A DNA stretch of 64,000 nt from Octopus sinensis (Eukaryota). The notes beneath the pieces were generated by a model. It was not told the origin of the DNA. It saw only the letters and a list, made by a program, of their open reading frames with translations, and ran no database searches. Shown here in pieces: positions 19,441 through 63,995 of this stretch. Position 1 is the first letter of the stretch; each line of letters begins with the position of its first letter. The translations under genes were made by a program, and so were the position numbers. Location: assembly GCF_006345805.1 (NCBI RefSeq), contig NC_043010.1, forward strand, positions 39,122,001-39,186,000, read 5' to 3'.

Positions 19441-21270
19441 AGGCAGAGTGAGGTGGATAGACAAAATTTCTAGATTTTCCTGTATTTAATAAATTAAGAA
19501 CAAGGCCAGAAATGTTAGTTTGATAGGGAGGGGTTTAAGTCGATACCACCGACGCCAGTCCTTAGCTCGTACTTCGTGTATGACAGTGCGCTGGCAAAAA
19601 TGTTGATAAAATAAGTACCAATTGAACCCTAGGGTAGATTCACTTGACTTATTCCCGCTCCAAATATTGCTGCTCATATGCCAAAGTTTGAAACCAATAT
19701 ATTTAATACATACAAATATAATACAATTCAAGACTGAAAATATTTTAGAAGTAAACCAATATTCCAAACTTTCAATACACCATTTCCGTCTTAAAAGATG
19801 AAAGAAAAACATAATAGATATTCTAGTATATGGTGGTATAGATATACCATCATATCTGAGATCGTGTATCTTAGTATTCTAATGCGGTAGTTAGAGATCG
19901 AATTACATGGTTTATAGTTTCTGTTTGATCCGAGCAAAACTAAGACTCGTTTTCCTCCTCTTTCCCTCCACATCATCATAATCAGCGTCATCTTTATCAT
20001 AGTTCGTCCTCCTCATGAGAAAACCAATGTGAAAGCCAATGAAAGACTGTGTAACGCATTCTATCCAGCTCGTAAAAATTGTAAATAAATATTGGAGAAT
20101 AAAGTCCTAGTTACAATATCACCGTAATAAGACGTAACAGTGTTGGGGCACTTTTATCATAGATATGGTCAATCAATGTTAGTCGGGCCCAAATCACCAA
20201 CAGAAATATTCGCAGCAATTCTAAAGAATAAAAGTCGACATTCTAATAGAGTGTCTCGAACACAACCGTTGGTATTTCCTGTAAACACTTTCAGATGATT
20301 TCGAGGTTATCCATAATCATGATCATGATCATCCTGATCATCATCATCATTAACACAACCATCTCCACCACCACCACCACCACAGTCACAGTAACCAACA
20401 CCACCACCATTACAATAATCAACAGTAGCATCACAGACCAATGAATGAGAGAGAGAATGTGAGAAAGAGGAAGTGAGAGAAAGTGGGTGTGAGAGAGATA
20501 GATCGTAAGGGAGAGAGAGAGGTGTGTGTAAGAGAGAGATTCAGAGAGATATTGAGAAGCAGAGAAAGTGAGGAAAAGATAGTGAGAGAGCTCCTTCATT
20601 CGGAAACGATCATTTATAATGAAGAACCAAATGTTCTTCAAATCACACCCCACAGACTTGAGAAAGATAAAAGGAAATACGAATTACTGTCTTTTGCAGC
20701 ATGCCTTAACATTTGGCAGGTGTTATATGTTATGAAATAGAACATCAACCTTAATTAGTTGAATGATAACCATTTTGTCTACTTGCAGAATTTGATTTCG
20801 TAACGTTAAAGGTTTGCGATAATACAAGGCATGTCATTTTGTCCGTAACCCTTTCATCTGAAGAATCGAGATGAAAGCACACACACTTCATTCAATGAAA
20901 TATTATTGGAAATCAGATATAATATAACAAATAAAACTTCTTTACACTCTAGGTATCCGAGACTTACTGCTTATCTATAAACGACATTTTACAAGCGCTT
21001 TCAATTTCCCTATTCCCCGATAATAGTTTCAAATTTTCTATATTTACCTTAATTTTATAGGAAACCTGCAGGATGCATTATTATATGAAAGATTATCAAA
21101 TAAAGCCTGCTTGACGCATTTCAACTGACACTGCTTCAACATCATAACAGAGTCTCTCCATTCAAAGTGACGTATAATGTCTTGTTATCTCGTAAAGCAC
21201 CATTTTGGTACAGCATATAGTGTGCTGGAGGAATTTTACGTGATTCACAGCCATTACACGTTATATATAT

Positions 21271-22052
<782 letters not shown>

Positions 22053-22054
<2 letters not shown>

Positions 22055-25000
22055 ATTTGGCGCGAGTGCGATGATTTGAAAATTTTAGGTCAGATATTGC
22101 CGAGGCAGGGACGGGAATGCCTCGTGAAAAATATATGTTCCGACTTGGCTATTTCTTACGATGAATCTAAGGGCTATGGTAGATTGGCTTGATTTAATTT
22201 AATCAGGTAGTTTACCATTAAACAGTAGATTAAACGGTGCATCGTATAAGAAATTACAGGGTAAATGTTTTTTAATTTTCTCCTGGTTTACGGAATTGAT
22301 GTTATTTTGCGGTTGAAGCTTTTGGCTGTTATTTCTAGTGGGTGAATGGCCTATTATGGCCGTTCCTTGATTGTGATGTTGAACTTAAAAATGGTCTATG
22401 ACTATTTAATTTTTTCCCACTAGGCCGCTGGTGGCAAAAAAATTCTACAAAATTTTTTGCCACCCTATATTGGATTAATTATGAATTTTCTGGTTAATTC
22501 CGTAATGGAATCGGCGGCTTATATTTATTTGCTGCCGATAAATTTGGCGCGCGTGCGATGATTTGAAAATTTTAGGTCAGATATTGCCGAGGCAGGGACG
22601 GGAATGCCTCGTGAAAAATATATGTTCCGACTTGGCTATTTCTTACTGATGAATCTAAGGCCTATGGTAGATTGGCTTGATTTAATTTAATCAGGTTAGT
22701 TTACCATTAAACAGTAGATGAAACGGTGCATCGTATAAGAAATTACGGGTAAATGTTTTTTAATTTTCTCCTGGTTTACGGAATTGATGTTATTTTGCGG
22801 TTGAAGCTTTTGGCTGTTATTTCTAGTGGGTCAATGGCCTATTATGGCCGTTCCTTGATTGTGATGTTGAACTTAAAAATGGTCTATGTCTATTTAATTT
22901 TTTCCCACTAGGCCGCTGGTGGCAAAAAAATCTACAAAATTTTTTGCCACCCTATATGATTACTTATGAATTTTCTGGTTAATTCCGTAATGGAATCGGC
23001 GGATTATATTTATTTGCTGCCGATAAATTTGGCGCGCGTGCGATGATTTGAAAATTTTAGGTCAGATATTGCCGAGGCAGGTACGGGAATGCCTCGTGAA
23101 AAATATCTGTTCCGACTTGGCTATTTCTTACTGATGAATCTAAGGGCCTATGGTAGATTGGCTTGATTTATTTAATCAGGTTAGTTACCATTAAACAGTA
23201 GATGAAACGGTGCATCGTATAGAAATTACAGGGTAAATGTTTTTTAATTTTCTCCTGGTTTACGAATTGATGTTATTTTGCGGTTGAAGCTTTTGGCTGT
23301 TATTTCTAGTGGGTGAATGGCCTATTATGGCCGTTCCTTGATTGTGATGTTGAACTTAAAAATGGTCTATGACTATTTAATTTTTTCCCACTAGGCCGCT
23401 GGTGGCAAAAAAATTCTACAAAATTTTTTGCCACCCTATATTGATTAATTATGAATTTTCTGGTTAATTCCGTAATGGAATCGGCGGCTTATATTTATTT
23501 GCTGCCGATAAATTTGGCGCGCGTGCGATGATTTGAAAATTTTAGGTCAGATATTGCCGAGGCAGGGACGGGAATGCCTCGTGAAAAATATATGTTCCGA
23601 CTTGGCTATTTCTTACTGATGAATCTAAGGGCCTATGGTAGATTGGCTTGATTTAATTTAATCAGGTTAGTTTACCATTAAACAGTAGATGAAACGGTGC
23701 ATCGTATAAGAAATTACAGGGTAAATGTTTTTTAATTTTCTCCTGGTTTACGGAATTGATGTTATTTTGCGGTTGAAGCTTTTGGCTGTTATTTCTAGTG
23801 GGTGAATGGCCTATTATGGCGTTCCTTGATTGTGATGTTGAACTTAAAAATGGTCTATGACTATTTACTTTTTTCCCACTAGGCCGCTGGTGGCAAAAAA
23901 ATTCTACAAAATTTTTTGCCACCCTATATTGATTACTTATGAATTTTCTGGTTATTCCGTAATGGAATCGGCGGATTATATTTATTTGCTGCCGATAAAT
24001 TTGGCGCGCGTGCGATGATTTGAAAATTTTAGGTCAGATTTGCCGAGGCAGGTACGGGAATGCCTCGTGAAAAATATCTGTTCCGACTTGGCTATTTCTT
24101 ACTGATGAATCTAAGGGCCTATGGTAGATTGGCTTGATTTAATTTAATCAGGTTAGTTTACCATTAAACAGTAGATGAAACGGTGCATCGTATAAGAAAT
24201 TACAGGGTAAATGTTTTTTAATTTTCTCCTGGTTTACGGAATTGATGTTATTTTGCGGTTGAAGCTTTTGGCTGTTATTTCTAGTGGGTGAATGGCCTAT
24301 TATGGCCGTTCCTTGATTGTGATGTTGAACTTAAAAATGGTCTATGACTATTTAATTTTTTCCCACTAGGCCGCTGGTGGCAAAAAAATTCTACAAAATT
24401 TTTTGCCACCCTATATTGATTAATTATGAATTTTCTGGTTAATTCCGTAATGGAATCGGCGGCTTATATTTATTTGCTGCCGATAAATTTGGCGCGCGTG
24501 CGATGATTTGAAAATTTTAGGTCAGATATTGCCGAGGCAGGGACGGGAATGCCTCGTGAAAAATATATGTTCCGACTTGGCTATTTCTTACTGATGAATC
24601 TAAGGGCCTATGGTAGATTGGCTTGATTTAATTTAATCAGGTTAGTTTACCATTAAACAGTAGATGAACGGTGCATCGTATAAGAAATTACAGGGTAAAT
24701 GTTTTTTAATTTTCTCCTGGTTTACGGAATTGATGTTATTTTGCGGTTGAAGCTTTTGGCTGTTATTTCTAGTGGGTGAATGGCCTATTATGGCCGTTCC
24801 TTGATTGTGATGTTGAACTTAAAAATGGTCTATGACTATTTACTTTTTTCCCACTAGGCCGCTGGTGGCAAAAAAAATTCTACAAAATTTTTTGGCACCC
24901 TATATTGATTAATTATGAATTTTCTGGTTAATTCCGTAATGGAATCGGCGGCTTATATTTATTTGCTGCCGATAAATTTGGCGCGCGTGCGATGATTTGA

Positions 25001-25781
25001 AAATTTTAGGTCAGATATTGCCGAGGCAGGGACGGGAATGCCTTGTGAAAAATATCTGTTCCGACTTGGCTATTTCTTACTGATGAATCTAAAGGCCTAT
25101 GGTAGATTGGCTTGATTTATTTAATCAGGTTAGTTTACCATTAAACAGTAGATGAAACGGTGCATCGTATAAGAAATTACAGGGTAAATGTTTTTTAATT
25201 TTCTCCTGGTTTACGGAATTGATGTTATTTTGCGGTTGAAGCTTTTGGCTGTTATTTCTAGTGGGTGAATGGCCTATTATGGCGTTCCTTGATTGTGATG
25301 TTGAACTTAAAAATGGTCTATGACTATTTACTTTTTTCCCACTAGGCCGCTGGTGGCAAAAAAATTCTACAAAATTTTTTGGCACCCTATATTGATTAAT
25401 TATGAATTTTCTGGTTAATTCCGTATGGAATCGGCGGCTTATATTTATTTGCTGCCGATAAATTTGGCGCGCGTGCGATGATTTGAAAATTTTAGGTCAG
25501 ATATTGCCGAGGCAGGGACGGGAATGCCTTGTGAAAAATATCTGTTCCGACTTGGCTATTTCTTACTGATGAATCTAAAGGCCTATGGTAGATTGGCTTG
25601 ATTTAATTAATCAGGTTAGTTTACCATTAAACAGTAGATGAAACGGTGCATCGTATAAGAAATTACAGGGTAAATGTTTTTTAATTTTCTCCTGGTTTAC
25701 GGAATTGATGTTATTTTGCGGTTGAAGCTTTTGGCTGTTATTTCTAGGGGGTGAATGGCCTATTATGGCCGTTCCTTGATT

Positions 25782-25786
<5 letters not shown>
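22053..25786 (+). repeat. Tandem array of ~485-489 bp units (~7.6 copies), each with a hammerhead motif; retrozyme-like
   Basis: CTGATGA cores at 22159 (T deleted), 22646, 23131, 23616, 24102, 24591, 25080 and 25566, spaced 485-489 bp apart. Units differ mostly by 1-nt indels and a few substitutions. (TA)n flanks the composite array on both sides. Confidence 0.97.
24094..24200 (+). ncRNA. Type I hammerhead ribozyme (representative intact array copy), predicted cleavage after A24192
   Basis: Stem I ATTTCTTA 24094-24101 pairs with TAAGAAAT 24193-24200. CTGATGA is at 24102-24108. Stem II ATCTA 24109-24113 pairs with TAGAT 24172-24176 and encloses a 19-bp hairpin. GAAA is at 24177-24180, stem III is ACGG[TGCA]TCGT, and the GTA triplet is at 24190-24192. 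Confidence 0.9.
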
Positions 25787-25834
<48 letters not shown>

Positions 25835-25846
25835 TATATTATATAT

Positions 25847-25895
<49 letters not shown>

Positions 25896-25900
25896 TATTG

Positions 25901-29354: not shown

Positions 29355-30043
29355 TTTCTTCTTCTTCTTCTTCTTCTTCTTCTTCTTCTTCTTCTTCTCT
29401 TCTTCTTCTCTTTTCTTCTTCTTCTTCTTCTTCTTCTTTCTTCTTCTTCCTCTTCTTCTTTTTCTTTTCTTCTTCTCTTCTTCTTCTTTTTTCTTCTTTT
29501 CTTCTTGTTCTGTTTTTTTCTTCTTTTTCTTCTTTTTCTTCTTCTTCTTCTTCTTCTTCTTCTTTTTCTTCTTTTTCTTCTTGTTCTTGTTTTTTCTTCT
29601 TTTTCTTCTTTTTCTTCTTCTTCTTTTTCTTTTTTCTTCTTTTTTTCTTCATCTTTTTTCTTCTTCTTCTTTTTTCTTCTTCTTCTTCTTCTTTTTTCTT
29701 CTTCTTCTACTTCTTCTTCTTCTTCTTTTTTCTTCTTCTTCTTCTTCTTCTTTTTCTTCTTCTTTTTTCTTCTTCTTCTTCTTCTTCTTCTTCTTATCTT
29801 CTTTTTTCTTCTTTTTTTTCTTCTTCTCTTTTTTCTTTTTCTTCTTCTTCTTCTTCTTTTTTTCTTTCTTCTTCTTCTTCTTCTTCTTTTTTTCTTCTTC
29901 TTCTTTTCTTCTTCTTCTTCTTCTTCTTTTTTTCTTCTTTTTTTCTTCTTTTTTCTTCTTCTTTTTTTCTTCTTCTTCTTCTTCTTCTTCTTCTTCTTTT
30001 TCTTCTTCTTCTTCTTCCTCTTCTTCTTTTTCTTCTTCTTCTT
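29355..30043. repeat. ~690 bp imperfect (CTT)n/(GAA)n polypyrimidine-polypurine tract
   Basis: Read directly from the sequence. It explains the five overlapping K/R/E or F/L/S-rich ORFs. Confidence 0.97.
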
Positions 30044-63384: not shown

Positions 63385-63995
63385 TTCAGCATGTATTTGT
63401 TGTAGTAAGGTGAGCGAAATGACAAAGCATATATTTTAAGGCAAAGTACACATGAAAACCCACAGGCATGAAGTAGCTATGCAGGCGCTGCAGCAGAATC
63501 AGACGCTTCAACCCCACCAAGTAGAAAACCATGCGATTGAAAATGCCGAACCTGAGGACAAGACTGATAATACATTAGTGACAAGTCAACCAGATGACAG
63601 TTGTATAACTGTTACACAACCAGCAACATTGACCACTGCTGCGACACTTCAGAATGGAACTGTCAGCTCTAGCCTTAGTGATATTAATCAAAACGATCTG
63701 ACTGCAACTAATGCAGCTGTTTTATCTCAAACAACTATTTCAGAAGCCTTTTTAGAACAGGTATTTAACGTTCAACAGAATCTATTAGGAAACCAGCAAA
63801 ATTTTATCTTTTAACCAAGGATCAATTACGTTACCCAGCTCGCAACAGTTAACAAATGTAATAGACGTAAGTCCTTTAAACACATCCTTTGCACCTACTT
63901 TGCCGACCACTTCTCTACAAAGCATACTCTAGAAACCCACAGTATGATGCCTTCCGCTCTCCAAAATATCCCTTGTAATTTATCGATGGTCTAAA
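63385..63995 (+). pseudogene. Coding-like segment: zinc-finger-like start plus Q/T/S/N-rich region, disrupted
   Basis: The frame of ORF 63452-63814 extends upstream through one stop as SACICCSKVSEMTKHIF*GKVHMKTHRH (CxxC..HxxxxxH). Removing one T near 63810 continues it as NQGSITLPSSQQLTNVIDVSPLNTSFAPTLPTTSLQSIL. The sequence is non-repetitive with higher GC. Confidence 0.35.

What the first reader, a model, noticed from the sequence alone, without database searches (positions are those of the whole stretch)
24094..24582. Array monomer is extensively self-complementary with G-U pairs on one strand only
Seen in one unit: a 19-bp hairpin 24121-24139/24146-24164 with 5 G-U and no mismatch, and a long-range 13-bp helix 24234-24246/24438-24450 with 2 G-U. 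Also ctagtggg 24281-24288 with cccactag 24362-24369, ggtggcaaaaaa..ttttttgccacc 24376-24410, atcggcggc 24455-24463 with gctgccgat 24476-24484 (1 G-U), gaggca/tgcctc 24534-24555, and smaller G-U-rich hairpins. On the opposite strand the G-U positions become A-C mismatches. Inference: selection acts on a branched RNA fold of the hammerhead-sense strand, as in retrozyme and viroid-like circles. Some helices are mutually exclusive (ccactag[gccg]ctggtgg competes with two others), suggesting switchable conformations.
Basis: partly seen in the sequence, partly recalled or inferred. Interest (0 to 1): 0.75.

Follow-up and report, generated by a model that had tools for sequence, protein, structure and literature searches.

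The report
Structured retrozyme with two copying starts
This 488-base repeat is one copy of a widespread, protein-free jumping element whose RNA carries a hammerhead self-cutting motif and a fold kept by compensating mutations; its two fixed insertion ends each lie just behind one conserved hairpin, so the fold likely serves as a docking site for a borrowed Penelope-type copying enzyme.

Summary
All six helices are present as described. The circular monomer folds far better than shuffles (z about -6). The strand argument as posed fails: the antisense strand has the same z, and the 41 kcal/mol gap is compositional (33 of 100 shuffles reach it). The fold is still under selection. Subfamilies down to about 70% identity show double-sided changes in 21 of 62 pairs, and wobbles favour sense G-U over A-C. 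The proposed ccactag switch is unsupported (P=0.00).

The array is one arm of a two-armed, head-to-head insertion in (TA)n. It belongs to a family with 3,962 long-stem-II type I hammerheads in the genome: a non-LTR retrozyme. Arms end at two fixed sites about 104 nt apart, each just behind a covarying hairpin. 114 of 118 resolved insertions pair site A with site B; none pairs like with like. This is the Penelope 'tail' signature, so a Penelope-type enzyme most likely mobilises it; one chimera with a Penelope ORF was found. Cleavage, circularity and the partner are not shown. One genomic copy looks like a retro-copied, ADAR-edited hairpin transcript, but editing does not explain the G-U content.

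The parts
21262..21395 (.). Left (TA)n microsatellite flank (target)
21396..22054 (-). Inverted arm, about 1.4 monomers; 3' end at fixed site B (q235), 5' end at q59; holds one intact hammerhead (core at about 21708)
22053..25786 (+). Main arm, 7.7 monomers of about 488 nt; 5' end at about q291, 3' end at fixed site A (q131); 6 of 8 hammerheads intact (first unit and the 24591 unit each lack a core base, possibly assembly error)
25785..25898 (.). Right (TA)n microsatellite flank (target)
24096..24198 (+). Type I hammerhead: stem I 24096-24101/24193-24198, CUGAUGA 24102-24108, stem II 24109-24113/24172-24176, GAAA 24177-24180, palindromic stem III 24180-24191, predicted cut after A24192 (GUA); q1 = 24193
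24121..24164 (+). 19-bp G-U-rich hairpin forming the long extension of hammerhead stem II; covaries (5 of 19 pairs change on both sides)
24234..24450 (+). Long-range 13-bp helix 24234-24246/24438-24450; predicted (P 0.89 at 37 C, 0.19 at 20 C), no double change, partly broken in other subfamilies
24255..24374 (+). GCGG/CCGC helix plus ctagtggg/cccactag helix (24281-24288/24362-24369) enclosing site A; 4 of 8 pairs of the latter change on both sides
24290..24311 (+).
24312..24323 (+). Fixed insertion end A (q131 = 24323), after a C-C-T-n-n-A-T-Y-G-like stretch; inferred reverse-transcription start
   Evidence: (431 exact end-A/(TA)n junctions), 21, 61
24376..24410 (+). Hairpin directly before site B (ggtggc...gccacc; 2 of the 8 pairs counted change on both sides)
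24411..24427 (+). Fixed insertion end B (q230-239, mostly q235 = 24427); inferred second reverse-transcription start
24455..24484 (+). atcggcggc/gctgccgat hairpin; varies by G-U wobbles at 4 pairs, one A-C singleton
24534..24555 (+). gaggca/tgcctc hairpin; low in the predicted ensemble (0.05) but its AGGC/GCCT core is paired in at least 20 of 21 aligned copies

Best explanation
The repeat is a non-coding, hammerhead-bearing retroelement (non-LTR retrozyme) whose sense-strand RNA fold is conserved by compensating changes, and it is likely copied into (TA)n tracts by the reverse transcriptase-endonuclease of a Penelope-like element. Shown: tandem units, hammerhead motif, covariation, dispersal, (TA)n flanks, two head-to-head arms, and two fixed 3' ends about 104 nt apart, each behind a conserved hairpin, used one per arm. 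Inferred steps: (1) multimeric transcripts self-cleave, probably as double hammerheads through the palindromic stem III, and some monomers circularise. (2) A dimeric Penelope-type protein binds the hairpin domain and nicks both target strands; one subunit starts at site A and the other at site B. (3) Both cDNAs mostly run through the ribozyme site, on a circle or an uncleaved multimer. (4) The two cDNA ends are joined by short microhomology, giving the inversion. On this reading the fold's roles are ribozyme control and enzyme docking, not a conformational switch.
For: Hammerhead with all three stems; 3,962 genome matches vs 4 for the reversed control. Covariation (and stem II by sequence in 61). 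The stem III 12-mer is fully self-complementary in 477 of 488 copies; intermolecular duplex -17.5 vs monomer hairpin -0.1 kcal/mol, matching the dimer rule in PMC4209133. Ends: 114 of 118 resolved two-arm junctions pair A with B, 0 AA, 0 BB; 41 of 42 among loci not chosen by an end; the same in the 473-nt subfamily at about 71% identity. Two start sites, cleavage and extension of both target strands, AT-rich targets and a predicted dimer were reported for a Penelope-like protein in vitro (PMC11167929). Arms stop at the cut site in only 8 of 476 passages. Most junctions overlap or abut by a few bases. Young RT + C-terminal GIY-YIG elements that also end in (TA)n are present. In L055 the retrozyme arm ending at site A is paired with an arm that runs from retrozyme sequence straight into the 3' part of such an element.
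Against: No autonomous element sharing the monomer's terminal sequence was found: 40 GIY-YIG loci gave no significant match, nor did 30 copies of the L093-family 3' end apart from one 20-nt piece. Only 150 of 5,029 GIY-YIG candidates were scored. The L055 chimera is a single case and could be a deletion between two neighbouring insertions. The spacing (about 104 nt) exceeds the published 30-40 nt tail. Exact stops at the cut site were enriched in the first set (7 vs 1.6) but not in the second (1 vs 1.8). Units inside the window array share private variants in an alternating pattern, which one-pass copying of one circle does not explain. In the predicted ensemble the hammerhead is mostly not formed (stem III P 0.01), though the active fold costs only 1.9 kcal/mol. 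In the diverged third family, site B is shared but site A is poorly defined. Rfam finds nothing. No raw reads were available.
Confidence: 0.8

Rival explanations
1. The fold and G-U richness are by-products of a G+U-skewed satellite DNA that spreads by DNA recombination; no RNA-level selection.
For: The strand energy gap is compositional and both strands have z about -6. Some arrays show shared private variants that fit local amplification after insertion.
Against: Double-sided changes in 21 of 62 pairs; conserved catalytic core across subfamilies; hundreds of dispersed insertions with fixed 3' ends and variable 5' ends.
Confidence: 0.03
2. G-U pairs accumulate because ADAR edits the RNA (A-U to I-U) and reverse transcription fixes the edits; the asymmetry is mutational, not selected.
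For: Contigs of four runs guessed to be RNA carry A>G clusters on the sense strand. One genomic copy (L301) differs from its nearest relatives by 10 substitutions, all A>G on one continuous strand.
Against: Changes fixed in single insertions show no sense A>G excess (A>G 9, T>C 15). Rare variants in 707 segments show none either (A>G 81 at 124 A positions, T>C 103 at 182 T positions). Only 1 of 4,943 copies of a test 21-mer is doubly A>G. The L301 edits lie only where the two arms pair with each other (4 of 10 A vs 0 of 32), not in the monomer's own helices as such.
Confidence: 0.07
3. The inverted arm is made by fold-back self-priming or by copying of whole hairpin transcripts, not by two subunits priming at two sites.
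For: 29 of 114 junctions are symmetric (permutation mean 5.8, maximum 16). In 18 of the 22 rows outside the site-B palindrome the arms differ by 90-117 nt. L301 looks like a whole two-arm transcript copied at once. Self-priming was proposed for Penelope inversions (PMC3846280).
Against: 85 of 114 junctions are asymmetric, and the A arm is the longer one in up to 43 of 114, which fold-back of the B arm cannot give. Junction coordinates are mostly unique. L055 has different RNAs in the two arms.
Confidence: 0.15
4. The monomer is a conformational switch toggling ccactag between two partners.
For: The alternative hairpin can be drawn in the window copy and in the third family (sequences).
Against: Ensemble probability 0.00 at 37 and 20 C; one of its pairs is a C-A mismatch in most 473-nt-type sequences. 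The competitor helices covary.
Confidence: 0.07
5. The RNA is a viroid-like circle that replicates RNA-to-RNA, with genomic copies as a side product.
For: Size, hammerhead, stable fold; both strands beat shuffles.
Against: No antisense CUGAUGA core in the monomer; branched, 60% paired; thousands of young genomic copies with retrotransposon-type ends.
Confidence: 0.03

Closest known systems
Metazoan non-LTR retrozymes (PMC7229834: passages and Discussion read; bioRxiv 10.64898/2026.07.22.740005: parts 1-3 of 5 read)
   Same: Non-coding tandem units each with a type I hammerhead, GC under 50%, dispersed copies, stable predicted fold, co-occurring Penelope-like elements.
   Different: 488 nt is above the 150-450 bp of the 2020 paper, though inside the 51-972 bp of the 2026 preprint. 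Stem II is extended by a 19-bp hairpin. The 2020 main text has no 'inverted', 'octopus' or 'cephalopod'; the parts of the preprint read sample no mollusc and describe no paired ends. Cleavage and circles are shown there, not here.
EN+ Penelope-like elements and their 'tail' (PMC11167929: main text read; PMC3846280, PMC8557442: passages)
   Same: Head-to-head inverted 5'-truncated arm, partial tandems, AT-rich or (TA)n targets, an extension at one end only, explained by two internal reverse-transcription starts.
   Different: No ORF here. The two starts are about 104 nt apart (about 85 nt in the 473-nt subfamily) instead of 30-40 nt. Each follows its own covarying hairpin. The one-of-each rule is nearly strict (114 of 118), whereas the papers call the tail optional or often present and saw no strand difference in vitro.
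Dimeric type I hammerheads with palindromic loop 3 (PMC4209133: passages)
   Same: Palindromic stem III/loop able to pair between tandem copies.
   Different: Stem III is 4 bp rather than 1-2 bp; stem II closes a 60-nt insert; the G10.1-C11.1 pair is replaced by a variable A-N position.
Hammerhead viroids and satellite RNAs (recalled; not tested against sequences)
   Same: Small, self-complementary, ribozyme-bearing.
   Different: Genome-encoded, one ribozyme polarity, retrotransposon-type insertions.

Membership tests
Metazoan non-LTR retrozyme | Tandem units each with a type I hammerhead | tested here: met
   7 of 9 cores intact in the window insertion, at least two consecutive
Metazoan non-LTR retrozyme | No protein-coding ORF | tested here: met
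   only two 123-aa antisense stop-to-stop frames at the 120-aa cut-off
Metazoan non-LTR retrozyme | No LTRs; GC below 50% | tested here: met
   PBS and PPT were not searched for
Metazoan non-LTR retrozyme | Many dispersed copies | tested here: met
Metazoan non-LTR retrozyme | Stable self-paired monomer fold | tested here: met
Metazoan non-LTR retrozyme | Transcribed | tested here: inconclusive
   contigs only, RNA status guessed, no silent-stretch control; A>G clusters suggest RNA but may come from read-through transcripts
Metazoan non-LTR retrozyme | Self-cleavage of the RNA | not testable with these tools
   indirect: exact-site stops not replicated; excess of 5' ends in q484-30, 17 vs 9.8 and 21 vs 7.6, window chosen afterwards
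Metazoan non-LTR retrozyme | Accumulates as circular RNA | not testable with these tools
   no raw reads; a tandem array cannot distinguish circle from multimer
Penelope-type insertion | Inverted 5'-truncated arm, head-to-head | tested here: met
Penelope-type insertion | Tail at one end only (two start sites) | tested here: met
   length about 104 nt, longer than the published 30-40 nt
Penelope-type insertion | AT-rich or (TA)n target | tested here: met
Penelope-type insertion | Target-site duplication | not testable with these tools
   flanks are (TA)n, so a duplication cannot be read
Autonomous Penelope-like element | RT + GIY-YIG ORF | tested here: not met
   such ORFs exist elsewhere in the genome
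Derivative of a named Penelope family | Sequence shared with a pLTR | tested here: inconclusive
   none in 40 + 30 loci; 150 of 5,029 candidates scored; one chimera
Viroid-like replicon | Ribozyme in both polarities | tested here: not met
   exact CTGATGA core only, none antisense within the monomer

The most novel reading that the evidence does not exclude
The conserved fold is an asymmetric two-seat dock for a Penelope reverse-transcriptase dimer. Each seat is a hairpin followed by a CCTnnATYG-like unpaired stretch. Each subunit is tied to one target strand and one seat, which enforces the one-A-one-B rule, and the two seats can be filled by different RNA molecules (retrozyme in one arm, autonomous element in the other). 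This would explain how Penelope-like elements build their inverted ends and tails, and show that a ribozyme RNA has evolved a protein-free mimic of that dock.
Probability: 0.35. Interest if true: 0.75.

Novelty: new member of a known kind. Interest (0 to 1): 0.5.

Why it matters
The class is known, and this scan has noted other families with the same anatomy in this genome. What this family adds is a test system. How Penelope-like elements form inverted ends, and whether they mobilise retrozymes, is stated as open in PMC8557442, PMC11167929 and the 2026 preprint. Here thousands of copies in several subfamilies give a covariation-supported RNA structure, two mapped start sites next to named hairpins, a near-strict pairing rule and a candidate enzyme family. 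These can go straight into the published in vitro assay. The edited genomic copy would, if real, be a direct trace of an RNA intermediate in the germ line.

Tried and rejected
Strand energy gap as evidence: rejected, compositional. G-U count as evidence: below shuffles. ccactag switch: P 0.00. ADAR fixation as source of G-U: no strand bias. Exact 5' stops at the cut site: not replicated in 60 new loci. One search had two helices off register (stem II, GCGG), so its totals (29 vs 11) are superseded; stem II was judged per sequence because MAFFT misaligned it. One search miscalled some ends in the 473-nt subfamily (one false AA), corrected. Partner search: the short-stem hammerhead pattern with the same stem III gave 0; a looser one gave 86 older, unrelated hammerheads (control 10); no similarity to GIY-YIG loci. 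A read-derived motif was absent from the genome. Rfam: no hit. Dropped before counting: L044 and L045 (same flanks as L043), overlapping fetches of one array, L154, L164, L165 (repeats of earlier loci). L194 contributes two near-identical junctions. Literature searches. None listed a paper on this family or on the pairing rule in retrozymes. The library lacks most subscription journals, and no supplements were read (the 2020 paper's tables could list cephalopod hits; the preprint's are closed). Earlier-findings look-ups near the place and by sequence returned nothing.

Full report
Observation. As a circle, 24094-24582 folds at -146.0 kcal/mol against -111.8+-5.6 for 100 dinucleotide shuffles (z -6.1). 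The antisense strand has z -5.8, and the 41.5 kcal/mol gap is matched by shuffles (38.7+-6.1; 33 of 100), because the strand is U- and G-rich. In the neighbouring unit the MFE has 23 G-U pairs against 31 in shuffles. The proposed alternative hairpin has probability 0.00. The gaggca/tgcctc helix has 0.05, being outcompeted in the prediction, although its core is kept across subfamilies.

What it is. The unit is one of 7.7 copies of a 488-nt repeat at 22053-25786. An inverted arm at 21396-22054 precedes it, and (TA)n flanks both sides. Each unit carries a type I hammerhead with a long stem II, of which the 19-bp hairpin is the extension. Rfam misses it, and there is no ORF. The family is large: 952 candidate places at first look, 4,943 copies of one 21-mer, 3,962 long-stem-II hammerheads vs 4 for the control. 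Subfamilies reach about 70% identity. It is present in runs of four organism labels (laid). An earlier AI note calls the host an octopus; I did not test that.

Selection on the fold. With 22 diverse hammerhead domains, 11 of 29 pairs change on both sides (shuffles 4.8; slid controls 0-4). Stem II was left out of that count and covaries when read per sequence (TCTA/TAGA to GTGT/ACAC). With 12 diverse end domains, 10 of 33 pairs change on both sides (shuffles 4.5). RNAalifold alone recovers most helices. The controls ignore relatedness and the structure came from one member, so this is strong but not phylogeny-corrected support. Wobble types favour the hammerhead strand: 35 G-U vs 14 A-C overall, 25 vs 14 (p=0.11) for pairs that are Watson-Crick in the window copy, and 14 vs 3 (p=0.013) without singletons. 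The 13-bp long-range helix has no double change in its 9 outer pairs and is partly broken elsewhere. Stem III plus loop is self-complementary in 477 of 488 copies, the signature of hammerheads that work as dimers in multimers and stay quiet as monomers (PMC4209133, passages). That, not the ccactag toggle, is the likely regulatory alternative.

Insertion anatomy. Arms end at two fixed sites, q131 (A, 24323) and about q235 (B, 24427), counting from the predicted cut. There are 431 exact A/(TA)n junctions. In 161 loci, 114 of 118 fully resolved two-arm junctions pair A with B, none AA or BB. The split is 73 of 76 among loci chosen by end A and 41 of 42 among loci not chosen by an end. 5' ends are variable and mostly joined with a few bases of overlap. 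29 of 114 junctions are symmetric (permutation mean 5.8), 7 of them in the site-B palindrome where the mapping is ambiguous. Arms stop at the cut site in 8 of 476 passages; an exact-site excess in the first set did not replicate. A wider window chosen afterwards (q484-30) is enriched in both sets but coincides with a hairpin and a T-run.

Mechanism. Inverted arms, (TA)n targets and a one-sided tail are Penelope hallmarks (PMC3846280, PMC8557442, passages). The tail was traced to two internal reverse-transcription starts by a protein that extends both target strands and is predicted to be a dimer (PMC11167929, main text). I therefore infer mobilisation by a Penelope-type enzyme with one start per target strand (confidence 0.8 for Penelope mobilisation of a retrozyme; 0.35 for the strict two-seat dock). 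RT + GIY-YIG families are abundant here. None examined shares sequence with the monomer, but L055 joins a retrozyme arm and the 3' part of an L093-type element in one (TA)n site. Circle versus uncleaved multimer cannot be told apart, and alternating private variants in the window array point to some amplification after insertion.

Editing. Contigs of four runs guessed to be RNA show A>G clusters (contigs only, no control stretch, not the same individual as the genome). One genomic copy carries 10 of 10 substitutions as A>G on one strand, confined to the inter-arm duplex. Overall spectra show no A>G bias, so editing is real but likely minor for the G-U content.

Known and new. This fits metazoan non-LTR retrozymes (PMC7229834, passages and Discussion; bioRxiv 10.64898/2026.07.22.740005, parts 1-3 of 5) on every feature testable here; cleavage and circles were not testable. 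My searches listed no description of this family or of the pairing rule in retrozymes; supplements were not read. Earlier notes of this scan describe other families in the same genome with the same two-site anatomy (seen after my own counts); they are unchecked AI notes, not independent support, and they lower the uniqueness of this locus.

Verdict. Observation partly confirmed; interpretation partly supported; new member of a known kind; interest 0.5, mainly because the mapped hairpins, start sites and candidate enzymes make an open mechanistic question directly testable.

Noticed in passing
L301:2613-2872 (G000:C7, about 61.83 Mb): A small two-arm copy differing from its nearest relatives by 10 substitutions, all A>G on one continuous strand, none preceded by G, and confined to the inter-arm duplex (4 of 10 vs 0 of 32 A in the B arm). 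It was found by searching for two of the ten changes. It likely is a retro-copied ADAR-edited hairpin transcript; an assembly artefact is not excluded.
   Followed up: partly
L055:3630-6766: Chimeric insertion in (TA)n: one arm is retrozyme ending at site A; the other runs from retrozyme q217-321 into the C-terminal ORF part and 3' end of an L093-type Penelope-like element, with 2-nt microhomology.
   Followed up: partly
L093, L271-L300: Young (99%) RT + C-terminal GIY-YIG family (775 aa, CxxC linker) in partial tandems ending in (TA)n, with what reads by eye as a minimal palindromic hammerhead about 170 nt before its end.
   Followed up: partly
L095, L097, L099, L100: Second high-copy 781-aa RT-GIY-YIG family with CCAAT- and CRE-like repeats (motif names recalled) in a long 3' region.
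   Followed up: no
L111-L125; L126, L226-L250: Sister families: 473 nt (about 71% identity, 634 motif hits) and about 496 nt (older, about 69-75% in local matches, 1,600 candidates) with the same architecture.
   Followed up: yes
L251-L270: At least three older families of short-stem-II type I hammerheads in the same genome, several ending in (TA)n.
   Followed up: no
window 22053-25786: Units share private variants in an alternating pattern, then a second pattern in the last two units, suggesting dimer-scale duplication after insertion or a mixed template.
   Followed up: partly
window 24488-24497: TTTGGCGCG, resembling an E2F site (recalled), is kept in the 488- and 473-nt subfamilies; a possible internal promoter element.
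   Followed up: no
window 24166-24209 and 23783-23830: Clusters of A>G in contigs of four runs guessed to be RNA, not listed in the DNA runs; consistent with hyper-editing.
   Followed up: partly
window 63440-63814 (+): A 124-aa frame that looks like a real exon, possibly after a zinc-finger end (by eye).
   Followed up: no
window 29356-30043: A 690-bp (TTC)n tract.
   Followed up: no
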